Below are positions 3,545 to 51,534 of a stretch of DNA of 64,000 nt, in pieces (position 1 is the first letter of the stretch; every line of letters begins with the position of its first letter). Both the position numbers and the translations under genes were made by a program. The notes beneath the pieces were generated by a model. It saw only the letters and a program-made list of their open reading frames with translations, had not been told where the DNA came from and made no database searches. The stretch comes from a virus (lineage: Duplodnaviria > Heunggongvirae > Uroviricota > Caudoviricetes). Location of the stretch: IMG/VR virus record IMGVR_UViG_3300042259_000065. The stretch is one strand, 5' to 3'.

Positions 3545-4645
3545 TTAGATATTATTTAGTTTAGAGATATAGAACTCTCGTGCTTTGTTTGCAACATACT
3601 TACCAACATCCTTCATAGAGAGGTTACTACTTTCAAGTGTGTCGGCTTCTTCCTTGTTTACATCCTTACTCACCCATCCAATGAAGGTTCCAACAAGTTT
3701 TTGGTCAAGACCTACTTCTGCTAGTCCTTGTTCAAGACGATTCTCCGTAACAGCGTAATCTACGAACTCTTTGATTGAATTAAGTTTCTCAGTATCAACT
3801 GCTGCAACAGATTTAACCTTTGACACAGAATGTTTCTGTCCTTTAGTTTTAAACCAATTACCGCTATCCCAACAATACTCAGGGTCTTTCGGAGTCCACA
3901 CTAGACCCTCTCCAAGTTCTGCTGGATTATCATCTGTATCTTTCAAACCTAGTGTACTTGCTACTGGACATGATTTTTCTACAGCTTCTGTAGCTTCTAC
4001 AAGGGTATTCTGTGAGTAAGCTGCATTGTTAAAATCAATGGTGATATGTTTAACAGGAAAATCTGTGATAGCATAAATACCATTATCTTCATCATCTACG
4101 ATATCGCTACAAACTGTAACTGGCAGCCAACCCTGTTTAACTTGCTGAATAGTCTCACCACCTTTAATACCAAATACAAAGAATGAACGTTTAGGTAGGT
4201 AAGAAATACCAACACCTTTCTGGATACCAGATCCACACCACTCACCTGACACTTTAACAGGGTATAGTTCCACACCTTGATGATACTTAACTTCATCTAG
4301 AGCTTTGTACATCATTTCTTTTACACTATCAAAACGACGATACATTGTTTGTGCAAACTCTGCGTTATCTGAGAGTAGTGTAAACTCTTCATCACGCACA
4401 TAACCAAGAAGTTGTGATTTACTGTGGAATGAAATTGTACTATCTTCATGAAGAACGATACTTGCATTAGTCCCATGAAGCTTAGTTGTGCCGATATACT
4501 CAAGTTTAGGGATAGGTTTAGTTGAATCTTTGATTACATTACCATCTTCATCAACACCTACAAAAGTAGCTTGGTCACGAATAGATTTTACCACATTACG
4601 AAATTGTTGTGTGCTGTGATATTTATAATTAGTTGGATGTTCCAT
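3545..4645 (-). CDS. RNA ligase, Rnl2-like
   Basis: Nucleotidyltransferase motif I KLHGTNAS, as in T4 Rnl2 (KIHGTN). The size, 366 aa, fits. Confidence 0.6.
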   Translation of the reverse strand: MEHPTNYKYHSTQQFRNVVKSIRDQATFVGVDEDGNVIKDSTKPIPKLEYIGTTKLHGTNASIVLHEDSTISFHSKSQLLGYVRDEEFTLLSDNAEFAQTMYRRFDSVKEMMYKALDEVKYHQGVELYPVKVSGEWCGSGIQKGVGISYLPKRSFFVFGIKGGETIQQVKQGWLPVTVCSDIVDDEDNGIYAITDFPVKHITIDFNNAAYSQNTLVEATEAVEKSCPVASTLGLKDTDDNPAELGEGLVWTPKDPEYCWDSGNWFKTKGQKHSVSKVKSVAAVDTEKLNSIKEFVDYAVTENRLEQGLAEVGLDQKLVGTFIGWVSKDVNKEEADTLESSNLSMKDVGKYVANKAREFYISKLNNI

Positions 4646-9242: not shown

Positions 9243-10571
9243 TTATTTAATACGTTGTTTGTCTAAGATGTCTTGGTAAGAATCGGCATCCAATTTATCA
9301 AATCGTAACTTCTTGAAGATTGGGAATGTTACACTCTTCTGCTTAGTTTTAGAATTTTCACTTACCTTTTCATATTCAATTTCAACAATCTTACCAAGAA
9401 TCTCATTCTTATTCAACCAAAAGTATTCACGTTGTTCATCAGAGAATCCACTACCACAATCAGTCTTGATTTCACCATCACCAGACTCTAGTTTAATACC
9501 ACCAAGTTTACCAGAAGCTTTACCTGTACCTTCATACAAATCTACAACAAGTAAATCAGCGGGGTCTTGTTTCTTCATCTTAACACAGTGAGAAGGTTTA
9601 TCTACTGCTTTCCAAGGAGCATCCATGTCTTTGAGAATACAACCTTCAAAACCACGAATAACATAATCTTCAAAAATAGCTTTAGCTTCTTCCATAGTAA
9701 CTAGTTCTTTACGAGGAATGAGTTTAATCTTAGGAACAATACTATTCTCATCACACCATTCATGATATTGTTGCATCATACATTCTAGAGTTTCACGACG
9801 TTTATAGTTTGGAGTTTTATCCACACCTTTAGGTTCATAACATTCTGCTCGTATACAATCCCACACAAGGTAGATCGCCGAATCTTTTTCTTCAAAACTA
9901 GCCGTATCTTGTACAAACTTGTTCACAATACCATTATCTTCTCGTGCAGCTTTAGTTTCATCAAAGATGATTTCCCCCTCGAAAGCATAACCATTAAAAG
10001 CTCCACAATCAAGATGCTCTTTTAGAGGTTCCAGTGTTACTGGTTGACCACTTCGAGTCATAAAATCATCGAAGTATGCCATAAAGCTACCATCAGCTTT
10101 CTGCTCGATTGCTTTACGTTTCTTAGCAAGCTTACTGAGGTTTTCTTCATTACAACCTTTAGCTCCTTGACGTGGAGGTGTTACAATAAGATTCTTCCAA
10201 ACTTTATTGATTGTTTGTTTACCAACACCAACCTTTAGATCTTTATGTAGTACACGGATAAACAAGTCACTCATAAAGTTTGGTAATGTTGAGAGATATT
10301 CTACTACAAAAGCTTGTGCTTCATTACCAGTTTTCTTCCTAAGACGTAGTGTATCTAAAACAGCAAAGAATTCTGTCCATGAAAAACTTTCACCTGTTGG
10401 CGTAAAGTCTGGAATCTTTCTCATAAAATATTGCATTGTTGGAGAGTAAGCATACTCAAAGATTTGTTTCAATGCAGAACTTTCTTTGTGTTGCAGTAAG
10501 ATTGCTTCTTTTTCATTTTTACTCTGTGTAACAGATACCGTCTTTAAAGTATTATAAACACTCTTATCCAT
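9243..10571 (-). CDS. ATP-dependent DNA ligase
   Basis: KxDG adenylation motif (EQKADGSF). 442 aa. Confidence 0.7.
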   Translation of the reverse strand: MDKSVYNTLKTVSVTQSKNEKEAILLQHKESSALKQIFEYAYSPTMQYFMRKIPDFTPTGESFSWTEFFAVLDTLRLRKKTGNEAQAFVVEYLSTLPNFMSDLFIRVLHKDLKVGVGKQTINKVWKNLIVTPPRQGAKGCNEENLSKLAKKRKAIEQKADGSFMAYFDDFMTRSGQPVTLEPLKEHLDCGAFNGYAFEGEIIFDETKAAREDNGIVNKFVQDTASFEEKDSAIYLVWDCIRAECYEPKGVDKTPNYKRRETLECMMQQYHEWCDENSIVPKIKLIPRKELVTMEEAKAIFEDYVIRGFEGCILKDMDAPWKAVDKPSHCVKMKKQDPADLLVVDLYEGTGKASGKLGGIKLESGDGEIKTDCGSGFSDEQREYFWLNKNEILGKIVEIEYEKVSENSKTKQKSVTFPIFKKLRFDKLDADSYQDILDKQRIK

Positions 10572-11959: not shown

Positions 11960-12217
11960 TTAACTATCCATCATTTTAAAAGCATGTTCAACATCTTCAA
12001 AGAAAGTATCAGGACTTCCGTCCATAAAAGTTTCATTCTCCCAATCTTCAAACTGCTGAACAGAATAATTCTCCTTGACAATAAAAGCAAGGAATACTGG
12101 CAAAAAGAAACTATTTGTTACAAGATTAATAAATCCTTGAGCTGAACCTTTTGTTGGCAAAGTACCTTGTTTACAGAAGTCACAATATAGGTGACAAAGT
12201 GTTGTTGTATTAAGCAT
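11960..12217 (-). CDS. Hypothetical small membrane protein
   Basis: 85-aa ORF with a hydrophobic segment (FFLPVFLAFIV). Confidence 0.4.
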   Translation of the reverse strand: MLNTTTLCHLYCDFCKQGTLPTKGSAQGFINLVTNSFFLPVFLAFIVKENYSVQQFEDWENETFMDGSPDTFFEDVEHAFKMMDS

Positions 12218-12273: not shown

Positions 12274-13149
12274 TTATTCTTCTACAGTGTCAAGTGTTTC
12301 TAAGATACGAGAGCGAAGTTTTTCGATTCCGATATTATGTGAATATTTAACTGATAAAGTATCAGCAAGAGATTTCAACATAGACAGATCTTGTGTGGTT
12401 TTGATAACTTCACAATCTACAGGTAGTTCATTATCGTCACCAAAGATTGAATCAAATTCTTCATCTTCCATTTCACCTGTAATTAAACGAATCAAGGTAG
12501 ATTTATCTAGAGTTTCCAATTTGTCTTTAGGTAGTGATTCTGCGAACATAGCTTCAAGTTCTTGTTCAAGATTTTTCTCATCTTCTTCCATACGTTCGAT
12601 AGCTTCAACATCAGTAGTTACAATAGTACATTCTTCACTAACACTGTTTGTAAAGTAACTAGCTGTTTGGATAGCCTTCTGAAGAACATAAGCAGGGTCA
12701 AAATCATTATCTTCAGTAAGAACTTTAAGTGCTGCGTCTGCATGGTAAGAGCCACTACCAATTGAAGCAAAATCTTCATTCTTCAAAATACTGAAATTAG
12801 GTTGCATTTCATATAGACCTCCACGATAACCAATTAAGAAGTTACCACCTTGGTGCTCACCTTCTCGGAATTCCCCAACCCCATAGTTAGATAGTGTTGT
12901 TCGGAAACTTTCAATGACATCCAGTTGAAGGTACTCTCGATCAGTCATACCTTCCATACGTGGTGGTTGCTCCCAGTTATATTGGAGAATTTGACCTACA
13001 CGGAAAGATCCACAATATCCAAAAATGAATTCACCGTTTTGGAACACTTTAGTATCAGGGTATACCTTATGAGTATAGCCATTCGACCCCATCAAGTCAC
13101 CTGCCATCCAAACATGACCTTCTTTAATTACACCTACAATACAAGTCAT
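12274..13149 (-). CDS. HslV-like Ntn-hydrolase peptidase with an acidic C-terminal extension
   Basis: MTCIVGVIKEGHVWMAGD matches HslV MTTIVSVRRNGHVVIAGD, and FASIGSGSYHADAALKVL matches IAIGSGGPYAQAAARALL. 291 aa versus ~176 aa for HslV. Confidence 0.7.
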   Translation of the reverse strand: MTCIVGVIKEGHVWMAGDLMGSNGYTHKVYPDTKVFQNGEFIFGYCGSFRVGQILQYNWEQPPRMEGMTDREYLQLDVIESFRTTLSNYGVGEFREGEHQGGNFLIGYRGGLYEMQPNFSILKNEDFASIGSGSYHADAALKVLTEDNDFDPAYVLQKAIQTASYFTNSVSEECTIVTTDVEAIERMEEDEKNLEQELEAMFAESLPKDKLETLDKSTLIRLITGEMEDEEFDSIFGDDNELPVDCEVIKTTQDLSMLKSLADTLSVKYSHNIGIEKLRSRILETLDTVEE

Positions 13150-16543: not shown

Positions 16544-17911
16544 TCAAGAATATTTTGCAATAAAACTTGTACAATCTCCGTGATAGTTACCCTCTGAATC
16601 AAACACCTGTGGAACAGTCTTAAGGCCTTTGCCAAGAAGATATTCTTTGTGTTCTGGATTACTAACAACATCTTTCTGTACATAGTCAACACCTTTACTA
16701 CCGAGAAAATCTTTAAGTTTAGTACAGAAGGGACAATCTGGTTTTGTATAGATGGTGAGATTATGTAAATCACTAAGCTCATACTTAACCAAGACTTCCC
16801 CATCACCCATGTCAAAAATATCCAAATCTGAGAAATCTATATTCTCTGCTTCTCTGCTCACTGAACTAACCATATAGTTAGTGGCATCTGACTCCATATT
16901 AGCATTTTGCTGGCTATTCAAATCCATCCAATCAGTCTCAAACCAAGGCAAAGGACAAGTAACTGTTTTACGGAAGGGTTGGTCGAATTCGAGATTATCA
17001 TATACATCTTGAGCACAGTATCGTGTCCAGTCATTTAAGATCCCTTCGTTCAAACCAACCAAAGAACGTCCACTACTGAACAAATACTTGTTCCAACTTA
17101 ACTCTTGTTTAACCACACCAGATACAATATCCGTCAGTTCTTGTTTATAATCTTCAAAAATATAATCAAAGTCTTTTGACTCTTTTAAAATACTAAGTGC
17201 GTACCTCTGAGTCTCAAAATGAATCATCTCATCAATAAGAATTTTCTGAACTAACCGTGCCATACCAACAAAATATTCCTGTTCTGCTAGTGCAAACGTA
17301 CAAGCGAAACTAGACATAAAACTAATGCGTTCTAAAGCATAAATTGCAACTAAACCTTTAATAACATAGGGTTTAGCTTCTTCACTTGTAATTAAACCTA
17401 ATGTATACTTCGCACCAACCTCTTTTAAATCCGCTAAAGCTTTACTGACAACTGAACTACGTTCAAGGACTTGTTCATGCTTAAACACCATATCAAAAAT
17501 TTCTTGAGGATCTGGTACACACTGCCTAACAATATTAGAATAAGTAACGGAATGTAGATTCTCATTCTCACCAATACGTGCAATCACATGACCATATTCA
17601 CTATTTGTAACAAAAGGTGCTAGTAATGTTGGAATACTTGTTGCAATGGAATCTAAACTCCATTGGTAAGCCAAATTAAATAAACTAAGGTTACGGGTGT
17701 TTATATCACAACGTAGTAAATCCATACGGGTTTGCGTTAAGTCTACATCATTCTCAGACCAATCTAATTGCTTAAGCTTTTCCATTAGCTCATAGAAATA
17801 AGGGTATGGTTGGTTAATACTATCATATAAACTTGGCTCTTGTCCAAAGAAGATTGGATAATCCCCTGTTTTATGGGCAGTACTTTTCTGGTTAAAAACT
17901 GTAATTGTCAA
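16544..17911 (-). CDS. nrdB: Ribonucleotide reductase small subunit (R2) fused to a C-terminal glutaredoxin domain
   Basis: Ferritin-like R2 blocks (ALERISFMSSFACTF; LIDEMIHFE). The last ~85 aa carry CPFC...TVPQVF glutaredoxin motifs. The internal ORF 16498..16815 is judged spurious. Confidence 0.8.
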   Translation of the reverse strand: MTITVFNQKSTAHKTGDYPIFFGQEPSLYDSINQPYPYFYELMEKLKQLDWSENDVDLTQTRMDLLRCDINTRNLSLFNLAYQWSLDSIATSIPTLLAPFVTNSEYGHVIARIGENENLHSVTYSNIVRQCVPDPQEIFDMVFKHEQVLERSSVVSKALADLKEVGAKYTLGLITSEEAKPYVIKGLVAIYALERISFMSSFACTFALAEQEYFVGMARLVQKILIDEMIHFETQRYALSILKESKDFDYIFEDYKQELTDIVSGVVKQELSWNKYLFSSGRSLVGLNEGILNDWTRYCAQDVYDNLEFDQPFRKTVTCPLPWFETDWMDLNSQQNANMESDATNYMVSSVSREAENIDFSDLDIFDMGDGEVLVKYELSDLHNLTIYTKPDCPFCTKLKDFLGSKGVDYVQKDVVSNPEHKEYLLGKGLKTVPQVFDSEGNYHGDCTSFIAKYS

Positions 17912-17956: not shown

Positions 17957-20900
17957 TCATAAACTACAACCACCACTTGCGCAACCAACGTCTTGTACAG
18001 TCTCAATTTTTTGGTGCTTGGAATCTTTACCTGAATTAGTTTTACTATTCACATAATACCGAGTCTTCATACCCATCATATTCATATACATCCAATCTTT
18101 AAGTAAATCCTCCCCTGAGATCTTTTCCTTAGTAAAATCTAAGTAAATATCGGCAGAGATTGATTGGTCTGTGAAAGCTTGTATTGCTGCATAAACATCA
18201 ATTAGATCTTTAGTTTTGATGTCCCAAGCTAGCTCGTAGTAATCTCCGTGGGTATCTACATTAGGTGCCAAGAAACGTGTTTTCTTATTACCATTAGTTT
18301 TTACAACTTTTAATGCTCTAGCAGGTAAAATGCTATTTGTACCATTGGTTGCAATAGAACTAGACTCATTAGGCATAAAGTTTACCATAACACTGTTACG
18401 TACCCCAAACGTTTTAACCTCACTCCTCAAAGTTTCCCAGTCTTGCGTTAAAGGTTGTTTTATAACTTTAAAAACATTCTTGTTCATTGTGTCTATAGGT
18501 AGCCAACCATCTTTCCATTTGGTTTTATGAATCCACTCACATTCTCCACGTTCTTTTGCTAAACGCACACTAGCTTTTATCATTGAATATGAATGTAACT
18601 CTGCCAGTCGGTGAATAAATTGTTTACCTTCTAAACTAGAATACTTCATTTTCTTAACAGCCATTAGCCCTGCAAGATCTGTAATACCTACACCTATATT
18701 ACGACGAGCTTTAGCTGTTGTTTCTAAGGATGGAAAAGGATAATCCATAATATCCATCACATTGTCGATTGACAGTGCTGCATAATAACATACATCCTCC
18801 CATTCGGATTCAGCAACTCTTCTCGCAACTATAGCTGAAAGGCTACACAAGCCTATCTCTGGAATACTACCATCTGAATTGACTGGATTACTTTGATAAA
18901 GCTGTTCTACTGAATCATAACCAACTGTTGGGAACGCGGTTTCCTGACAATTACCTGTTAGAATACCATTAAACATCCCCATCCCACGTTTAGGTTCTGT
19001 AAAACAATACGTATCATCTACACGACCCTCATCAACAACAGAGGATACTTTAACAAACTGTTTAGCATCTCTTTGAGGAAGACGTTTTACTACTTGCATA
19101 CGATTTAGGTATTCTCCTAAACCTAAACACATTAACCGATATACATCATAACTGGTTACTAATAACCTCCAAGATTCTCGACACCAGAAATCCCCATTTT
19201 CACCAGAACCATCATTAAGTGGTAACTTCCGGTAACCTTCTTCCATCATAGGAGTAATCTTAGCAGAGACACCCAGTGTCTGCAACATGTATTGAACTTC
19301 TTTAAGGAAGTTTAATTCTACACTACTACCTACGAGTTGTTGGTTTGTGCCGTTTCTATACACACAACCATCACCATCTAACCAACCGGCAAACCACTTC
19401 AATTTTGACTCAATATCATAATCTTCAGATGGTACGAAAAATTTATCTTTAAGTCCGTCCATTCTACCGATTTCACGGTTTTGTTTATCATCAACAGTAT
19501 GTGTTCGTAAATTAAAGAGTTTTGTTAACTTACGTTTTTCATGGTAGAAATATAAGACTTTCTGACCACCACTCTCACATCCATCCGCAGTAAAGAATCC
19601 GTTTTCATAAGCATTTAGAAGTGTCTTGGCACCATCTAAAACGGGAAGGTCAAACTTAGCTAATTTATCACCTACAGACAATTCATGCGTTCTTTTTACT
19701 GTATAAGGCTTACCGTACCCATCGAATACATACCATTTATGGTAAGGTGTACATTCAAGCTCCTGACCAGATGAAGTTGTTACTTTGAGTAGTTTTTGAT
19801 TTACTCCTGTTTTAACAACCGTAGTCTCTGAGAACTCTTCACCATTCCATACGTTAACAACCTCACCTTCCATTTCTGCTATAGGTATATAGCCGTTGCT
19901 TGTTAAAATCTGAGTTTCAGGGGCAACACAAAGATTTGAGCTATAAATCTTATCTTTATGAGGGGTATGATAATTCATCTCATAAGTATTATGCAGATAA
20001 ACCTGACCACTCTCTTGACCTTGTACTAGAGCTTCAATAGCTAGTTTCTGTGCATTAACAAATTCTTTCTTAACAGGAGCATTAAGGTAGAATTTATAAA
20101 GGTTTTCGAACTTCTCTTGATCTGCTTCATACAGAGCTTCGTGTAAGTCTGGTGCATCTTTATAACTAATAAGCATCCAAGGTTCATTAAGGTACACCTT
20201 CTTTGCAAAAAGTCGATTACTGCCGAAAGAATAGTGAATACCATCCACACGTACCTTAGATGCAGTCTTCTTATTCTTCCATGTAAGGATATCCATAATC
20301 TCAGGGTCAAGGCAGGTTACATGCATAGTAGCAGAACCACCACGACTATTTTGCAAATTTGCAGCGACAGCACTTTGTGTCATAACATAGTAAGGACGTT
20401 TCCCTTGATGGATAGTAGTTCCGCCACGAACCTCATCACCTTTACTACGTGTTTTAATATGTGCCCCAATACCAGCGGATGCACATGTCAACATGTACGC
20501 AATATGATCTCCTGCAGCTAGACTCTTTGCTGTATCATGTGTTGTAAAGGTTGCACAAGATGCATACCCGCGATTTGGTGTACGTAATTGTGTCATAAAT
20601 GGGGTAGGTGCACAGATTTTCTTATCACTGAGGTATGTGTAATACTTTACTACATCATTGATACGACGTTCTTTTGGCATGGTTTTCATATTAGCCATCG
20701 CCATCCCCATATACATGAACTGTGGTGATTCCAGTGAGCGTTGTTCTACACGATTACGAATTACATACTTATCATTAATTTGCTTAATCTCTGGGTAGGA
20801 ATATGTCAGGTCTTTATTATGGTCAATAACACCTTCCAGCAACTTAAATTCATCCTCAGAATAATCTAGTTTTTCCCAGTAACCTTTTGCTACCATGTTA

Positions 20901-21208
20901 TCATGATGCTGTTTTAACGTAGGGATATTTTTAAAACCACCAAAAGCTTCCTTATAAATAACCCCTGCAAGAACTCGTCCAGCCAACATGAAATGTTTTT
21001 CGTCAAACTCTTCTACACAAGCGTCAATAATTGCTTTATCAATAGAACCTGTTGAACATTTATCTGAGAGAAGTTTAAGAGCTTTTAGTGAAATTGTTGA
21101 CCAGTTTACCTTCCTATCTGCTGCCCATCGCATTTTCTTATTGAATTTATTTGGGTCAAAAGGTTCTTCTCGACCATCTGCTTTAATAACAGTTTTAATA
21201 GCTGTCAA
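17957..21208 (-). CDS. nrdA: Ribonucleotide reductase large subunit (class I alpha) interrupted by an intein
   Basis: ATP-cone N-terminus (VIKADGREEPFDPNKF). The active-site region SNL|C..QETAF is split by a 327-aa intein. The ORF is 1083 aa; a normal alpha subunit is ~750 aa. Confidence 0.9.
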   Translation of the reverse strand: MTAIKTVIKADGREEPFDPNKFNKKMRWAADRKVNWSTISLKALKLLSDKCSTGSIDKAIIDACVEEFDEKHFMLAGRVLAGVIYKEAFGGFKNIPTLKQHHDNMVAKGYWEKLDYSEDEFKLLEGVIDHNKDLTYSYPEIKQINDKYVIRNRVEQRSLESPQFMYMGMAMANMKTMPKERRINDVVKYYTYLSDKKICAPTPFMTQLRTPNRGYASCATFTTHDTAKSLAAGDHIAYMLTCASAGIGAHIKTRSKGDEVRGGTTIHQGKRPYYVMTQSAVAANLQNSRGGSATMHVTCLDPEIMDILTWKNKKTASKVRVDGIHYSFGSNRLFAKKVYLNEPWMLISYKDAPDLHEALYEADQEKFENLYKFYLNAPVKKEFVNAQKLAIEALVQGQESGQVYLHNTYEMNYHTPHKDKIYSSNLCVAPETQILTSNGYIPIAEMEGEVVNVWNGEEFSETTVVKTGVNQKLLKVTTSSGQELECTPYHKWYVFDGYGKPYTVKRTHELSVGDKLAKFDLPVLDGAKTLLNAYENGFFTADGCESGGQKVLYFYHEKRKLTKLFNLRTHTVDDKQNREIGRMDGLKDKFFVPSEDYDIESKLKWFAGWLDGDGCVYRNGTNQQLVGSSVELNFLKEVQYMLQTLGVSAKITPMMEEGYRKLPLNDGSGENGDFWCRESWRLLVTSYDVYRLMCLGLGEYLNRMQVVKRLPQRDAKQFVKVSSVVDEGRVDDTYCFTEPKRGMGMFNGILTGNCQETAFPTVGYDSVEQLYQSNPVNSDGSIPEIGLCSLSAIVARRVAESEWEDVCYYAALSIDNVMDIMDYPFPSLETTAKARRNIGVGITDLAGLMAVKKMKYSSLEGKQFIHRLAELHSYSMIKASVRLAKERGECEWIHKTKWKDGWLPIDTMNKNVFKVIKQPLTQDWETLRSEVKTFGVRNSVMVNFMPNESSSIATNGTNSILPARALKVVKTNGNKKTRFLAPNVDTHGDYYELAWDIKTKDLIDVYAAIQAFTDQSISADIYLDFTKEKISGEDLLKDWMYMNMMGMKTRYYVNSKTNSGKDSKHQKIETVQDVGCASGGCSL
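18950..19930 (-). mobile_element. Intein (LAGLIDADG homing-endonuclease type) inside nrdA, aa 427-753
   Basis: Begins CVAPETQILTSNGYIPIAEM (block A). Contains WFAGWLDGDGCV and a second LAGLIDADG-like helix. Ends GMFNGILTGN, followed by the +1 Cys, which is the RNR catalytic cysteine. Confidence 0.7.
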
Positions 21209-31498: not shown

Positions 31499-32473
31499 TT
31501 ATTGACCAGTAGATGCAACAGGAACACCAATTGCACGTAGGTTTGTTTCACCGATAATAGTTGTCGGTACATTACCTACAGATTTACTATAAAGAACAGC
31601 TTCATTATCCAGACGTTGTTTTTCAAGAATCTCTGGTGTCAAAGATTTAGTAAGTTTCAAGTTAGCATCTGCAATAAGTTTAATCGCTTCTGCTTCACCT
31701 TGTGCTTTAGCAATTGCTGCATTTTTATGTGCAGTAGCTTCCGTGGTTAATTTATAAGCCTCTGCATCTGCAGCTTCCCGTTTCTTGTTTGCTTCACCTA
31801 CAGCTTCTTGTTTCTTAATCAGAGCGTTGGTGATTGCAATACGTTCCTCAGACTTCTTACGTTCCTCTTGTTGGATACGTTCTTGAGTATCAAGAATCTG
31901 TTTTGCAATACGTGGGTCAAATTCAATATCTTGGACAAGAACCTCTTGAATATCAATCCCTGTACCGTCCATTTGTTCCACTAAACGTTGTTTTGTATTC
32001 TCCTGCATAATAGATACCGTATCTGAGTTTGCTAATCCACGAGAATCTTGTACTTTCCGACCTTCATCCCTCACAATAGAACGTAGGTATTGTCGTAGAG
32101 TCTTATCTACATATTCCTGTGCGTTACCATAGTTCTGTTTAATATATGGTGTTTTTGAATCTTGAATACGATATAGAACTGTCACATTACCTGTTGAATT
32201 GAAACGGTCTTGAGTTGGGATATTGAGTCCATTTACTTCATATTTATTATTTCGTGTGTCAAACTCATCAAAACTTGAAAGAGGATTTACTGGAAAATGC
32301 AAACCTTCGCCATAATGTTGTTGATTGACTGTACCAAATGTGGTTTGTACTTTAGCAGTACCTGCTGATACTACAGTATAAGAATTTGCAAGAATGATTG
32401 CTACAGCAAACAAACCTAGACCTGTAGCAACTTTACCTTTTGTTACCTTGAATTTAGGCATTTCGTTAATCAT
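31499..32473 (-). CDS. SPFH/Band-7 (stomatin/HflC-like) membrane protein
   Basis: N-terminal TM helix, an SPFH-like core, and a long A/E/K coiled coil. Confidence 0.55.
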   Translation of the reverse strand: MINEMPKFKVTKGKVATGLGLFAVAIILANSYTVVSAGTAKVQTTFGTVNQQHYGEGLHFPVNPLSSFDEFDTRNNKYEVNGLNIPTQDRFNSTGNVTVLYRIQDSKTPYIKQNYGNAQEYVDKTLRQYLRSIVRDEGRKVQDSRGLANSDTVSIMQENTKQRLVEQMDGTGIDIQEVLVQDIEFDPRIAKQILDTQERIQQEERKKSEERIAITNALIKKQEAVGEANKKREAADAEAYKLTTEATAHKNAAIAKAQGEAEAIKLIADANLKLTKSLTPEILEKQRLDNEAVLYSKSVGNVPTTIIGETNLRAIGVPVASTGQ

Positions 32474-38377: not shown

Positions 38378-39490
38378 ATGGGGAATTTTATAATGTTGTT
38401 AGCACACAAGATAGAGATACGTCCAACACTTGAGCAAGAACAATTCTTTGAAAGTGCTTGTGGTAGTTCCCGTCATTTATGGAATAACATGGTTGCACAT
38501 TTCTCGAATAAAGAGAATAAGTTTTCGAAGAAATCTGCGAGAGAGTTTTATTACAGTAGTCGTAATGAGTTTACTTGGTACAACGAGTTAAGTACAGAGA
38601 TCTTCCAATCTACTATTGACAATCTTGAAAATGCTTTTAAAGGTTTCTTTAAAAATAAGAAAGGGTTTCCTAAGTTTAAGAAGAAGGGCATCAAAGATTC
38701 CTTTAGAATCTCTCAATCACCTAAATTCTCTGTTGTCGGCAGAGAACTTCGTATAGAGAAATTCAATAAAGTTAAGAGTCTACCTCCTATATCTTTACGA
38801 GAAAAACTTCGATTTACAGGTAAACCTAAACAATTGACAATTAGTAAAACAGGTGGTAAATGGTTTGCATCTGTGTTGGTAGAAGTAGAGTCTGGGTATA
38901 ATCTTAAACAACCTACAAGCAATAAACATGTTGGTATAGATTTGGGTATCAAGGCATTAGTTACCACGTCTGAAGGTGTATGTATTGGAAAATCTAATAG
39001 ACTTTCTAAACAATTAAGTAAACTAGCTAAATTGCAACAAAGACTTGCAAAGCAAAAGAAAGGTAGTAATCGTAGAGCGAAAACCAAGCAAAATATTAGT
39101 AAACTACATTTCTATGTTGCACAACAACGTAAATCATTGTTACATTCAGTAAGTGACTACTTGACATCAGAATATGAAATAATTTGCATGGAAGACTTAG
39201 ATGTCAAAGGTATGCTTGAGAATGGTAACAAGAATTTATCACGTATGATCTCTGATGTTGGTATGTACGAGTTATGTAGACAATTGGAGTATAAATCCTT
39301 CTTAAGAGGATGTAAAGTATTGTTTGTTGACCAATACTTCCCTTCAAGCAAACTGTGTAGTGTTTGTGGTAACATCAAGGAAGACTTAAAACTGTCAGAT
39401 AGAACATACAGTTGTGATTGTGGTTCTAGTATAGATAGAGATTTGAATGCTGCAAGAAATATCTTGACAGAATGTTTGAAACAACTATAA
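38378..39490 (+). CDS. tnpB: TnpB (IS200/IS605-family OrfB, RuvC-like RNA-guided nuclease family)
   Basis: The C-terminus CSVCGNIKEDLKLSDRTYSCDCGSSIDRDLNAARNI is the TnpB zinc-finger plus RuvC-III signature. The N-terminus HKIEIRPTLEQEQFF fits. No tnpA lies nearby. Confidence 0.8.
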   Translation: MGNFIMLLAHKIEIRPTLEQEQFFESACGSSRHLWNNMVAHFSNKENKFSKKSAREFYYSSRNEFTWYNELSTEIFQSTIDNLENAFKGFFKNKKGFPKFKKKGIKDSFRISQSPKFSVVGRELRIEKFNKVKSLPPISLREKLRFTGKPKQLTISKTGGKWFASVLVEVESGYNLKQPTSNKHVGIDLGIKALVTTSEGVCIGKSNRLSKQLSKLAKLQQRLAKQKKGSNRRAKTKQNISKLHFYVAQQRKSLLHSVSDYLTSEYEIICMEDLDVKGMLENGNKNLSRMISDVGMYELCRQLEYKSFLRGCKVLFVDQYFPSSKLCSVCGNIKEDLKLSDRTYSCDCGSSIDRDLNAARNILTECLKQL

Positions 39491-47812: not shown

Positions 47813-47887
47813 GCAGGTGTGATGTAATGGAGAGCATATTTCTCTTCTAAAGAAATCGTCAGCGTTCGAATCGCTGCACCTGTACCA
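47813..47887 (+). tRNA. tRNA-Arg (anticodon TCT) with encoded CCA
   Basis: Hand-folded cloverleaf. The acceptor pairs gcaggtg with cacctgt (G-U first pair), the D-loop has GG, the anticodon stem pairs tttct with agaaa, the loop is cTTCTaa, and the T-arm is cagcg TTCGAAT cgctg. A discriminator A and CCA follow. Confidence 0.7.
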
Positions 47888-48126: not shown

Positions 48127-48201
48127 GGGTATGTAGCTCAGAGGCAGAGCAATTGGCTGTTAACCAATAGGTCGAGATTTCGAAATTCTCCATATCCGCC
48201 A
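48127..48201 (+). tRNA. tRNA-Asn (anticodon GTT) with encoded CCA
   Basis: The acceptor pairs gggtatg with catatcc, the D-arm is gctc agaggca gagc, the anticodon stem pairs attgg with ccaat, and the loop is cTGTTaa. The T-loop is TTCGAAA, with one T-T mismatch in the T-stem. A discriminator G and CCA follow. Confidence 0.65.
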
Positions 48202-50222: not shown

Positions 50223-50651
50223 TCAACGTAATTTTAAACTATGCTGTAAACGTTCTTCCATTTTATTAACAACATCTTCTGGAACATTGTGATTGTTCTT
50301 ATTACTGTGACGTTTTTCTATAATCAGACTTACAACTTTATATCCATAAGCATTAGCCATAGATGTATATGGTTTTAGTTCTTTTTCAGATGTCGATGTA
50401 TTATGAACCACAATATTAGCTACACCAGCATCCATACAAACCATAACACTGTCTTGACACCACTTATGAGCTAAATGAACATTTTCTGGTTTCCAATTAT
50501 AATTCCCTTGGTCATCATAATGAAAATCATCTGCTGCATATGCAATACAATCCTGTAAGGAAATTTCCAAGGTTTTAGCTAAAGTTGTCTTTCCGCTAGA
50601 TGGTAGTCCTCTTAGAATATATAAAGTTTTCTTAGTCATTTTATTCTCCAT
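50223..50651 (-). CDS. P-loop polynucleotide-kinase-like (5'-OH kinase) protein
   Basis: Walker A LRGLPSSGKTTLAKTL, and the size fits a stand-alone PNK kinase domain. The start was chosen at MENK (ATGGAGAATAA overlaps the Rnl1 stop). The track ORF starts at 50729 and would overlap Rnl1 by 89 nt. Confidence 0.55.
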   Translation of the reverse strand: MENKMTKKTLYILRGLPSSGKTTLAKTLEISLQDCIAYAADDFHYDDQGNYNWKPENVHLAHKWCQDSVMVCMDAGVANIVVHNTSTSEKELKPYTSMANAYGYKVVSLIIEKRHSNKNNHNVPEDVVNKMEERLQHSLKLR

Positions 50652-51534
50652 AATAATACCTCTCAATAAATTCTCGTCGTTGTTGATCATTATAAGAACG
50701 CCATACTTCCTTGTCAACATTTTCTGCAAGATAGTCTACGAACTCATAAAATTCTTCATCAATTCGTTGTTTAAACAAGTCTGGTTTATCAAACAAAATG
50801 TCCACTTTAGCTTTACCAAGACGCATAATTGCTTTCTTAGAGAGGTAGTGTGGTGATTTTAATTTACAAAGAACCTCTTCTGTGAAGTAATCCTTAACCA
50901 TATACCCCTCATGATTAACGTCAGTAGGTAGATCTTTAAATTTACCTACCCACAACTCACCACGCCTACATTCAGCAGCCTTGGATAGCCCATTTAGAAA
51001 ATATTCTGATGACATTTTACCTGTGTCATGATACCTACGTCCTATTAGATAAATACCTTCATTTTCCTCTACAATGTGAGGGTCACGTTTATCGCAAACT
51101 TCAAATATATGGGTAACACCTTCTTCATATAGAGCATCCTTGTTAATTGTTTCTAGCCACTCTTCACCAAGTTTAACATACTCAGAATCAAGACTTCCTG
51201 TTGTAGATACAATATAACCATAAGCTTTATTATAAGTTACAGAAAGCATATAACCGTTTACTTTACGAGGACAGATCACCACTTGCTCAGGGTCAACAGT
51301 TGTTCCATTATCACCAAAATTAAACACCTTACGGAAAGGCAGTACAATAACATTCCAAGCTTCATCTACAACAGTTCCTCGGCATTCAAGCAGTCGCTCG
51401 TCAATATGCCACAGATTATTGTAGAAAACCTTTCGATGATATTTAAGGACTGACAAACCTTTATATTTACCTTCGGTGTAAGTTTTCTTAATAACTAGAC
51501 CCTTTTCGATAAGGTCAGATACATCTAATTTCAT
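50641..51534 (-). CDS. RNA ligase, Rnl1-like
   Basis: LLECRGTVVDE matches T4 Rnl1 ALECRGIMFE; motif I RKVNGYMLSV matches KEDGSLVS; EGYMVKD...CKLKS matches EGYVAVMKDG..FKIKS. Confidence 0.7.
   Translation of the reverse strand: MKLDVSDLIEKGLVIKKTYTEGKYKGLSVLKYHRKVFYNNLWHIDERLLECRGTVVDEAWNVIVLPFRKVFNFGDNGTTVDPEQVVICPRKVNGYMLSVTYNKAYGYIVSTTGSLDSEYVKLGEEWLETINKDALYEEGVTHIFEVCDKRDPHIVEENEGIYLIGRRYHDTGKMSSEYFLNGLSKAAECRRGELWVGKFKDLPTDVNHEGYMVKDYFTEEVLCKLKSPHYLSKKAIMRLGKAKVDILFDKPDLFKQRIDEEFYEFVDYLAENVDKEVWRSYNDQQRREFIERYYYGE

What the first reader, a model, noticed from the sequence alone, without database searches (positions are those of the whole stretch)
16544..17911. RNR small subunit with a fused C-terminal glutaredoxin
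After the ferritin-like R2 core, the last ~85 residues read as a glutaredoxin: TIYTKPDCPFCTKLKDFL...LKTVPQVFDSEGNYHGDCTSF. Fusing the reductant to R2 would make the phage RNR self-sufficient for electron supply. It replaces the separate NrdH/NrdC-type redoxin seen in T4-like phages.
Basis: partly seen in the sequence, partly recalled or inferred. Interest (0 to 1): 0.5.

Follow-up and report, generated by a model that had tools for sequence, protein, structure and literature searches.

The report
Phage RNR small subunit–glutaredoxin fusion
This phage gene really does encode a ribonucleotide reductase small subunit with a glutaredoxin joined to its end, most likely to keep the enzyme's electron donor physically attached, but the same fusion in closely related phages was catalogued in 2018, so it is an ordinary member of a known family.

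Summary
Window 16544..17911 (minus strand) is one uninterrupted 455-aa ORF. It has four parts:
- a class Ia NrdB core with all E. coli metal, radical and radical-transfer residues conserved;
- a disordered tail that keeps the acidic/aromatic NrdA-binding motif;
- a variable linker of about 15 residues;
- a 72-residue CPFC glutaredoxin. It passes Pfam's threshold, models confidently as a thioredoxin fold, and matches GSH-bound GrxC-type glutaredoxins better than NrdH.

The fusion is not an assembly error. At least 45 protein clusters from isolates and metagenomes share it.

It is not new. The closest named relative, Shewanella phage 1/4 (71% identical), is annotated "RnR beta subunit+NrdH". That protein and the ICP1-type vibriophage NrdBs are listed as Grx:NrdB fusions in Rozman Grinberg et al. 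2018. That paper showed biochemically that an N-terminally fused Grx reduces RNR with GSH.

"Self-sufficient" is overstated, because GSH, glutathione reductase and NADPH must still come from the host. No second redoxin was found in the window or in the complete Shewanella phage 1/4 genome.

One minor extra observation: among close relatives the same Grx lineage is fused to the NrdB C-terminus, fused to the NrdA N-terminus, or encoded free-standing just downstream of nrdB.

The parts
16544..17911 (-). nrdB::grx ORF, 455 aa plus a TGA stop at 16544-16546; TTG start at 17909-17911
   Evidence: identical protein P0001
17920..17925 (-). Shine-Dalgarno AAGGAG, 8 nt upstream of the TTG start; nrdB starts 45 nt after the nrdA stop
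   Evidence: read directly from the sequence
16907..17911 (-). Ferritin-like R2 core, residues 1-335. It carries W51, D87, E117, H120, Y124, E194, E228 and H231, which correspond to E. coli W48, D84, E115, H118, Y122, E204, E238 and H241
   Evidence: alignment to E. coli NrdB; invariant columns; AF2 pLDDT above 90; positions
16808..16906 (-). Flexible C-terminal tail of the R2 part, residues 336-368. It contains E340 and Y346 (E. coli E350 and Y356, radical transfer) and the acidic/aromatic motif IDFSDLDIFDM (358-368). That motif aligns with the extreme C-terminus of E. coli NrdB and of unfused relatives, which is the NrdA-binding peptide
   Evidence: pLDDT below 50 for 336-375
16763..16807 (-). 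Linker, residues 369-383 (GDGEVLVKYELSDLH). In homologues it varies in length (about 10-25 aa) and in sequence
   Evidence: alignment; low pLDDT
16547..16762 (-). Glutaredoxin domain, residues 384-455, with a beta-alpha-beta-alpha-beta-beta-alpha fold
   Evidence: Pfam PF00462 E 4e-14; AF2 pLDDT 90-96; Foldseek top hits are GSH-bound Grx; phmmer against PDB
16724..16735 (-). Active-site CPFC (C393, C396). Both Cys and the Pro are invariant in 39 aligned sequences
16568..16618 (-). Putative GSH-binding elements: TVPQ (432-435, the cis-Pro loop) and GDCT (445-448, aligned with GGC(D) of Grx3-type proteins)
17957..21208 (-). Partner gene nrdA (1083 aa including a 327-aa intein): ATP-cone-like N-terminus and the class I alpha barrel
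17966..17983 (-). NrdA C-terminal redox-shuttle cysteine pair C1076/C1081 (GCASGGCSL), aligned with E. coli C754/C759. This is the presumed substrate of the Grx domain
   Evidence: alignment; sequence

Best explanation
The gene encodes a class Ia (E. coli-like, NrdBg-type) RNR radical-generating subunit. Its normal NrdA-docking C-terminal tail is extended by a short flexible linker and a dithiol, GrxC-like glutaredoxin.

Proposed mechanism, all inferred: the R2 tail docks on NrdA as usual. This parks the tethered Grx next to the flexible NrdA C-terminal tail. After each turnover the NrdA C1076/C1081 pair carries the active-site disulfide outwards, and C393/C396 of the Grx reduces it by the dithiol mechanism. 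Host glutathione then re-reduces the oxidised Grx, and host glutathione reductase and NADPH regenerate the glutathione.

The fusion therefore guarantees 1:1 stoichiometry and a high local concentration of the proximal reductant. It takes the place of a free-standing phage redoxin. It probably arose from an adjacent nrdB-grx gene pair by loss of the stop codon and intergenic spacer.
For: What is shown:
- Both domains lie in one ORF with significant Pfam scores.
- All catalytic R2 residues and the tail motif are conserved.
- The Grx fold is confidently predicted, and its nearest solved structures are GSH-bound dithiol glutaredoxins. These are 4tr0 (41% identity, rmsd 1.7 A), 1nm3 and 3grx, with NrdH ranking lower.
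- CPxC, TVPQ and GDC are invariant or nearly so across fused homologues.
- NrdA keeps the C-terminal Cys pair and the YY dyad.
- No other redoxin was found in the window or in the complete Shewanella phage 1/4 genome.
- The fusion is conserved in at least 45 protein clusters, including sequenced isolates: Shewanella phage 1/4, ICP1, eugene 12A10, PWH3a-P1, HNL01, VPMCC14 and F99.

Support from related genomes:
- The same Grx lineage is always linked to RNR. It is free-standing 13 nt downstream of nrdB in L016 and in the RNR cluster of vB_VibM_10AMN.
- In Vequintavirus and Kuttervirus it lies in the same frame as nrdB, separated by a stop codon.
- It is fused to the NrdA N-terminus in L005, L012, L013 and L015, and the L015 copy is 51% identical to the window's Grx.

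From the literature: a Grx fused N-terminally to F. ignava NrdB is an efficient GSH-dependent reductant of its RNR (PMC6187632).
Against: - No biochemical data exist for any C-terminal (phage-type) fusion in the literature I could search.
- The GSH-site motif is GDCT[ST], not the canonical GGCDD, so GSH dependence is likely but unproven.
- Extending the R2 C-terminus might be expected to interfere with docking of the tail on NrdA. Natural conservation argues that it does not, but this was not tested.
- Two close relatives (L004, L014) show no Grx within 5-6 kb of their RNR genes, so tethering is not obligatory.
- Only 64 kb of a genome of about 127 kb was visible, so a second redoxin could lie elsewhere.
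Confidence: 0.75

Rival explanations
1. The domain is functionally an NrdH-type redoxin. It would reduce NrdA but be recycled by host thioredoxin reductase rather than by glutathione.
For: The closest named homologue is annotated 'RnR beta subunit+NrdH'. NrdH models and structures are hit weakly: TIGR02194 at 36.6 bits, and 4fiw, 1h75 and 4hs1. From general knowledge, T4 glutaredoxin can be reduced by both systems.
Against: - Grx3-type models and structures score higher than NrdH throughout.
- The active site is CPFC, not CVQC, and there is no WSGFRP motif.
- The TVPQ and G-D-C-T elements of the GSH site and the YTK-x2-CPxC context of E. coli Grx3 are conserved.
- The NrdH score is far below the curated cut-off of 85.75.
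Confidence: 0.12
2. The Grx domain does not serve catalytic turnover. Instead it might support assembly or maintenance of the diferric-tyrosyl cofactor, redox-dependent regulation of alpha-beta docking, or general deglutathionylation and thiol repair during infection.
For: A third Cys (C447 in GDCT) is nearly invariant. The domain sits directly after the docking peptide and could in principle modulate docking. From general knowledge, monothiol Grxs help deliver iron to RNR in yeast.
Against: - It is a dithiol CPxC class I Grx, not a CGFS Fe-S type.
- The same lineage also occurs on the NrdA N-terminus and as a free gene. That fits a diffusible or tethered reductant of NrdA better than an R2-specific maturation factor.
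- The biochemical precedent shows that a fused Grx acts as the turnover reductant (PMC6187632).
Confidence: 0.1
3. The fusion is an artefact. A sequencing or assembly error, or a missed stop or frameshift, has joined two separate genes, nrdB and grx.
For: Separate adjacent nrdB and grx genes do exist in other phages, in the same frame in Vequintavirus and Kuttervirus.
Against: - The continuous ORF is reproduced in an identical JGI protein seen on 7 contigs.
- It also occurs in at least 45 clusters from NCBI isolates, JGI, ENA and Logan assemblies, and in complete phage genomes.
- The linker has no stop codon in any of 24 or more aligned fused sequences.
Confidence: 0.02

Closest known systems
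Phage NrdBg::Grx fusions catalogued by Rozman Grinberg et al. 2018 (J Biol Chem 293:15889, Table S1): Shewanella sp. phage 1/4 YP_009100336, Vibrio phages ICP1, eugene 12A10, helene 12B3 and PWH3a-P1
   Same: Same architecture and same gene order (nrdA, often with an intein, followed by nrdB::grx). The window protein is 71% identical over its full length to the Shewanella phage 1/4 protein and 44-46% identical to the ICP1 group. These are orthologues.
   Different: Only the sequence differs. The best DNA match to any deposited phage covers 9% of the 1.7-kb query, so this is an undescribed phage of the same group. None of these phage proteins has been characterised biochemically in the literature I could search.
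Facklamia ignava Grx::ATP-cone::NrdB (NrdBi), and Francisella Grx::NrdB (NCBIfam NF009398 'bifunctional glutaredoxin/ribonucleoside-diphosphate reductase subunit beta')
   Same: [quoted passage not shown] In F. ignava it was shown to reduce the RNR with GSH, glutathione reductase and NADPH.
   Different: - There the Grx is N-terminal; here it is C-terminal, directly after the NrdA-docking peptide.
- The NrdB subclass differs: Mn-dependent NrdBi or NrdBk there, against E. coli-like NrdBg with Tyr here.
- The NF009398 score is 29.6 bits against a cut-off of 649, so the window protein is not a member of that family. These are independent fusion events.
Free-standing phage RNR-operon glutaredoxins (Vequintavirus and Kuttervirus nrdA-nrdB-grx; T4 NrdC)
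   Same: A phage-encoded Grx is placed immediately after nrdB and is presumed to be the RNR reductant. In Vequintavirus and Kuttervirus a single tblastn alignment spans nrdB and grx in the same frame. L016 has a same-lineage grx 13 nt after nrdB.
   Different: Those are separate polypeptides with their own start codon and Shine-Dalgarno. T4 NrdC itself shows no significant similarity to the window domain (phmmer E 4.8).
Grx::NrdA fusions in viruses (two listed in Rozman Grinberg 2018; L005, L012, L013 and L015 here)
   Same: The same reductant is tethered to the same holoenzyme. The Grx on the NrdA N-terminus in L015 is 51% identical to the window's Grx, and the NrdB of those phages is 64-70% identical to the window's.
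   Different: The attachment point is the N-terminus of the catalytic subunit, and the NrdB in those phages ends at the normal docking tail.

Membership tests
Class Ia RNR beta subunit (NrdB, E. coli-like/NrdBg) | Ferritin-like R2 domain (Pfam PF00268) scoring above the gathering threshold | tested here: met
   111.8 bits against a cut-off of 33.6, residues 35-318. Best PDB matches are E. coli NrdB, E 1.7e-44.
Class Ia RNR beta subunit (NrdB, E. coli-like/NrdBg) | Six metal ligands (E. coli D84, E115, H118, E204, E238, H241) and the radical tyrosine Y122 | tested here: met
   D87, E117, H120, E194, E228, H231 and Y124 align with them and are invariant in 34 homologues.
Class Ia RNR beta subunit (NrdB, E. 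coli-like/NrdBg) | Radical-transfer residues W48, E350 and Y356, and an acidic/aromatic C-terminal peptide that docks on NrdA | tested here: met
   W51, E340 and Y346 are invariant. IDFSDLDIFDM aligns with the last residues of E. coli NrdB and of unfused relatives. Actual docking was not tested.
Class Ia RNR beta subunit (NrdB, E. coli-like/NrdBg) | Adjacent NrdA partner with the Y730/Y731 dyad and the C-terminal Cys pair | tested here: met
   nrdA ends 45 nt upstream. YY at 1051-1052 and C1076/C1081 align with E. coli Y730/Y731 and C754/C759.
Class Ia RNR beta subunit (NrdB, E. coli-like/NrdBg) | Fe(III)2-tyrosyl radical cofactor | not testable with these tools
   Needs metal analysis and EPR of purified protein.
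Class I dithiol glutaredoxin (GrxC/Grx3-like) | Pfam PF00462 scoring above the gathering threshold | tested here: met
   53 bits against a cut-off of 22.9, residues 386-437. The NCBIfam GRX_bact equivalog scores only 44.9 bits against 90, below its cut-off, so it is not an equivalog of bacterial Grx3.
Class I dithiol glutaredoxin (GrxC/Grx3-like) | CPxC active site at the N-terminus of helix 1 | tested here: met
   CPFC at 393-396. C, P and C are invariant in 39 sequences, and helix 394-405 follows strand 385-389.
Class I dithiol glutaredoxin (GrxC/Grx3-like) | Thioredoxin/Grx fold (beta-alpha-beta-alpha-beta-beta-alpha) | tested here: met
   AF2 pLDDT 90-96 with the expected order of elements. 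Foldseek probability is 1.00 to 4tr0, 3grx, 2fls and others, rmsd 1.7-2.2 A over about 70 residues.
Class I dithiol glutaredoxin (GrxC/Grx3-like) | GSH-binding elements: Lys before the CPxC, the TVP cis-Pro loop, and the GG(C)DD loop | tested here: inconclusive
   The K390 context YTKxxCPxC is identical to E. coli Grx3, and TVPQ is conserved. The last loop is G-D-C-T-S instead of G-G-C-D-D.
Class I dithiol glutaredoxin (GrxC/Grx3-like) | GSH-dependent disulfide reductase activity | not testable with these tools
   Needs the HED/GSH assay and the coupled RNR assay.
NrdH-redoxin | CVQC active site, WSGFRP motif, and a family model score above its cut-off | tested here: not met
   No CVQC and no WSGFRP. 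TIGR02194 scores 36.6 bits against 85.75 and NF007657 scores 26.2 against 131. NrdH structures rank below Grx structures.
T4 NrdC-type glutaredoxin | Sequence similarity to T4 NrdC | tested here: not met
N-terminal Grx::NrdB fusions (NCBIfam NF009398; Francisella/Facklamia type) | Grx at the N-terminus of NrdB, and the family model scoring above its cut-off | tested here: not met
   The Grx here is C-terminal. NF009398 scores 29.6 bits against a cut-off of 649.
Phage NrdB::Grx C-terminal fusions (catalogued 2018) | NrdB and Grx in one continuous ORF, orthologous to the listed phage proteins | tested here: met
   71% identity over 100% of the length to Shewanella phage 1/4 S14_29, and 45.6% over 99% to ICP1 NrdB. 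Both are listed in Table S1 of PMC6187632. The phrog_86 profile spans both domains.

The most novel reading that the evidence does not exclude
Among phages whose NrdB proteins are 64-73% identical, one Grx lineage has been relocated repeatedly. It is fused behind the NrdA-docking peptide of NrdB, fused to the N-terminus of NrdA, or free-standing just after nrdB. This would mean that selection acts on proximity to the holoenzyme rather than on a fixed architecture. The C-terminal version, anchored about 15 residues from the docking peptide, might then perform an essentially intramolecular re-reduction of the NrdA tail inside the alpha2beta2 complex, or even couple docking to redox state. That behaviour is not established for any RNR.
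Probability: 0.2. Interest if true: 0.4.

Novelty: already known. Interest (0 to 1): 0.15.

Why it matters
For annotation, it matters little. The gene should be labelled 'ribonucleoside-diphosphate reductase beta subunit, C-terminal glutaredoxin fusion'. The phage should be noted as bringing its own proximal RNR reductant while still depending on host glutathione.

For enzymology, the C-terminal phage-type fusion has not been characterised. It places the reductant right next to the alpha-beta docking site. It could therefore be a convenient natural construct for trapping the elusive complex between the NrdA C-terminal tail and its redoxin. That is an opportunity, not a discovery.

Tried and rejected
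- **DNA match to deposited phages.** A megablast of the locus found only a 147-nt match downstream of the gene, so the phage itself is not deposited.
- **Second redoxin.** I ran phmmer with E. coli Trx, Grx1, Grx3 and NrdH, T4 NrdC and the window Grx against all stop-to-stop ORFs of 40 aa or more. Nothing else scored in the window or in the full Shewanella phage 1/4 genome. Sensitivity for very divergent thioredoxin folds is limited.
- **A small ORF with CDFC near its N-terminus** (11960..12217, minus strand). I inspected it and rejected it as a redoxin: it has no similarity to any seed and its sequence is hydrophobic and low-complexity.
- **A phage-encoded glutathione or thioredoxin reductase.** None was found among the ORFs of 250 aa or more.
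- **Frameshift or assembly artefact.** Rejected.
- **NrdH identity.** Rejected on motifs and scores.
- **NJ tree of the R2 core**. It suggests several gains or losses of the Grx, but it has no support values and I treat it only as suggestive.
- **Census with tail+linker+Grx against 1.84 billion representatives**. The five best-scoring hits that also match the R2 tail are P0012, P0122, P0053, P0072 and P0215. The listed matches are otherwise mostly free Grx proteins of about 70-110 aa. This added little.
- **Not attempted.** No multimer modelling of NrdA with NrdB-Grx was available. I did not determine which of the 1164 phage records covering at least 80% of the query are true fusions and which are in-frame adjacent genes.

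Full report
**1. What is there**

Window 16544..17911 holds one uninterrupted ORF of 455 codons on the minus strand. It starts with TTG, and AAGGAG lies 8 nt upstream. It begins 45 nt after the stop of a 1083-codon nrdA. Pfam finds Ribonuc_red_sm at residues 35-318 (E 5e-32) and Glutaredoxin at residues 386-437 (E 4e-14). Both scores are above the curated thresholds. The PHROG profile for phage R2 (phrog_86) aligns over the whole protein, including the Grx part. That was the first hint that the fusion is already common in phage databases.

**2. The R2 part**

The best solved relatives are E. coli NrdB (E about 1e-44). The alignment runs from residue 4 to residue 363 of the ORF and reaches the last residues of the E. 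coli protein. The following residues are invariant in an alignment of 34 homologues:

| Window residue | E. coli residue | Role |
|---|---|---|
| W51 | W48 | radical transfer |
| D87, E117, H120, E194, E228, H231 | D84, E115, H118, E204, E238, H241 | metal ligands |
| Y124 | Y122 | radical tyrosine |
| E340, Y346 | E350, Y356 | radical transfer |

This is an intact class Ia, tyrosyl-radical-type beta subunit.

Unfused relatives end at an acidic/aromatic tail (…EDFDL, …ELEF, …IWDF). The window protein keeps that motif internally as IDFSDLDIFDM (residues 358-368). From established RNR knowledge, this tail is the peptide that docks beta onto alpha. AlphaFold2 models the core at pLDDT above 90 and leaves residues 336-375 disordered. 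That is the expected behaviour of an R2 tail.

**3. The Grx part**

After a variable linker (residues 369-383) comes a 72-residue domain. It was modelled with pLDDT 90-96, both in the full-length protein and on its own. Its topology is beta-alpha-beta-alpha-beta-beta-alpha.

- **Structural matches.** Foldseek against the PDB gives probability 1.00 to glutaredoxins. The best hit is 4tr0 (GSSG-bound cGrx2, 41% identity, rmsd 1.7 A over 70 columns). It is followed by the H. influenzae Prx-Grx hybrid 1nm3, by the E. coli Grx3-glutathione complex 3grx and by human Grx2-GSH. NrdH-redoxins first appear at rank 16. Sequence searches give the same order.
- **Conserved motifs.** In 39 aligned sequences, C393, P394 and C396 of the CPFC motif, P434, Q435, G445 and D446 are invariant. 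K390, T432, V433, C447 and T448 are nearly invariant. The YTKxxCPxC, TVPQ and G-x-C elements match Grx3-type proteins.
- **NrdH signatures.** The CVQC and WSGFRP motifs are absent.

I therefore call it a GrxC-like dithiol glutaredoxin. GSH dependence is likely but unproven, because the last GSH-site loop reads GDCTS rather than GGCDD.

**4. The substrate**

The NrdA C-terminus aligns with E. coli R1 residues 620-760. It keeps the YY dyad and the C754/C759 pair as C1076/C1081 (…GCASGGCSL). From established knowledge, this pair shuttles reducing equivalents from thioredoxin or glutaredoxin into the class I active site.

**5. The fusion is real, and it is not new**

An identical protein was called independently on JGI contigs of up to 127 kb. 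At least 45 of the 120 best 90%-identity clusters carry both domains in one ORF. They come from NCBI isolates, JGI, ENA and Logan assemblies.

In the phage collection the best hit is Shewanella sp. phage 1/4 gene S14_29. It is 71% identical over the full length, and its depositors named it 'RnR beta subunit+NrdH'. ICP1 NrdB is 45.6% identical over 99% of the length, and its neighbour is also an intein-containing nrdA.

Three points from the literature settle the novelty question:
- Rozman Grinberg et al. 2018 (PMC6187632) searched RefSeq for RNR-Grx combinations and reported Grx fused to NrdB in 24 viruses. Their Figure 1 shows a 'vibrio-phage operon'. Their Table S1 lists Shewanella phage 1/4, ICP1, eugene 12A10, helene 12B3 and PWH3a-P1 as Glutaredoxin:NrdB of subclass NrdBg.
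- Harrison et al. [quoted passage not shown]
- The 2018 paper also showed biochemically that the N-terminally fused Grx of F. ignava NrdB reduces its RNR with GSH, glutathione reductase and NADPH, by a dithiol mechanism.

I found no biochemical work on the C-terminal phage form.

**6. The claims about replacing a redoxin and being self-sufficient**

I searched all ORFs of 40 aa or more with thioredoxin, Grx1, Grx3, NrdH, T4 NrdC and the window's own Grx domain. The only hit was this gene, both in the 64-kb window and in the complete 133.8-kb Shewanella phage 1/4 genome. That genome's annotation also lists no other redoxin.

So the fused Grx appears to be the only phage-encoded redoxin. The caveat is that only about half of this phage's genome was visible.

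No disulfide-reductase flavoprotein is present among the window's ORFs of 250 aa or more. Electrons must therefore still come from host NADPH through host glutathione reductase and GSH. The enzyme is not self-sufficient.

**7. Origin and variability**

Relatives show every intermediate arrangement.

| Arrangement | Where | Details |
|---|---|---|
| Separate genes, same frame | Vequintavirus | nrdB stop, one codon, then grx ATG |
| Separate genes, same frame | Kuttervirus | 9-nt spacer |
| Free-standing grx after nrdB | L016 (NrdB 66% identical to the window's) | 78-aa grx 13 nt after the nrdB stop, with its own AAGGAG; it shares the TVPQVF and GDC signature |
| Free-standing grx in the RNR cluster | Vibrio phage vB_VibM_10AMN | 71-aa Grx, 46% identical to the window's domain |
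| Grx on the NrdA N-terminus | L005, L012, L013, L015 (NrdB 64-70% identical) | NrdB ends at the normal tail; the L015 copy is 51% identical to the window's Grx, as close as fused domains are to one another |
| No Grx within 5-6 kb | L004, L014 | |

An unsupported NJ tree of the R2 core places fused sequences in two clades, with unfused ones nested among them. The simplest reading is that the fusion arose from an adjacent nrdB-grx pair by loss of the stop codon, and that the variable linker is the former spacer. The module has since been lost, split off or moved more than once. This is inference.

**8. Mechanism (inferred)**

- The R2 tail docks on NrdA.
- The Grx, tethered about 15 residues further on, sits near the flexible NrdA C-terminal tail.
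- It reduces the C1076-C1081 disulfide through C393 and C396.
- Glutathione then regenerates the Grx.

Tethering gives fixed stoichiometry and a high local concentration of the reductant.

The rival explanations are NrdH-like recycling by thioredoxin reductase (0.12), a role outside turnover such as cofactor maintenance or regulation (0.1), and an artefact (0.02).

**9. Verdict**

The feature is an orthologue of published, catalogued phage NrdB-Grx fusions. It is an ordinary finding of low interest. The only residual value lies in two points: the C-terminal type has not been characterised biochemically, and the Grx relocates among close relatives.

Noticed in passing
window 18950..19930 (-), inside nrdA 17957..21208: A 327-aa intein with a LAGLIDADG homing-endonuclease domain interrupts NrdA (residues 427-753). 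It runs from CVAPETQILT… to …GILTGN, and the next extein residue is Cys in the SSNL|CQE context. From memory, that Cys is the catalytic thiyl-radical cysteine (E. coli C439). ICP1 and several metagenomic relatives also have intein-containing NrdA.
   Followed up: partly
window 38378..39490 (+): A 370-aa ORF has HTH_OrfB_IS605, OrfB_IS605 and Cas12f1-like TNB domains. This is a TnpB-type (IS200/IS605) RNA-guided nuclease gene sitting inside a lytic-looking phage genome.
   Followed up: no
window 12274..13149 (-): A 291-aa ORF starting MTCIVG… gives a weak Proteasome (Ntn-hydrolase, HslV-like) Pfam match: E 2e-4, 21.3 bits, just below the cut-off of 22.4. Its C-terminal half is acidic.
   Followed up: no
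L005 1458..4946; L012 3450..6023; L013 3046..5967; L015 2487..5966: In phages whose NrdB is 64-70% identical to the window's but lacks the Grx, a Grx is fused to the N-terminus of NrdA, ahead of the ATP-cone-like region. The L015 copy is 51% identical to the window's NrdB-fused Grx, so the same domain lineage has changed subunit.
   Followed up: partly
L001 3423..5935 (Shewanella phage 1/4); L004 2454..4986; L014 3488..5991: In these relatives nrdA is annotated or called as two CDSs separated by about 180-350 nt at roughly the position where the window has its intein. This suggests a different intervening element, such as a group I intron, or a split gene. I did not examine it.
   Followed up: no
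L003 3001..4371 (Vequintavirus) and L010 3441..4778 (Kuttervirus): nrdB and the downstream grx are separate genes but lie in the same reading frame, separated only by a stop codon plus 3 or 9 nt. A single tblastn alignment spans both. Many of the 1164 phage records covering at least 80% of the query may be of this split type rather than true fusions.
   Followed up: partly
window 47813..47887 and 48127..48201 (+): Two phage tRNA genes: tRNA-Arg(TCT) and tRNA-Asn(GTT).
   Followed up: no
window 3545..4645 (-), 50641..51534 (-), 9243..10571 (-), 31499..32473 (-): The window holds two RNA-ligase-family ORFs, an ATP-dependent DNA ligase and an SPFH/Band-7 protein. It also holds ThyA, PhoH, DUF5675, a serine resolvase, a PIF1/RecD-like helicase, a large terminase and a portal protein. 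The gene content is syntenic with Shewanella phage 1/4 and ICP1-like myoviruses.
   Followed up: no
P0123 (1034 aa): A database protein hit by the Grx query carries four tandem Glutaredoxin domains fused to a pyridine-nucleotide disulfide oxidoreductase. This is an unusual multi-Grx reductase architecture and is unrelated to the window.
   Followed up: no
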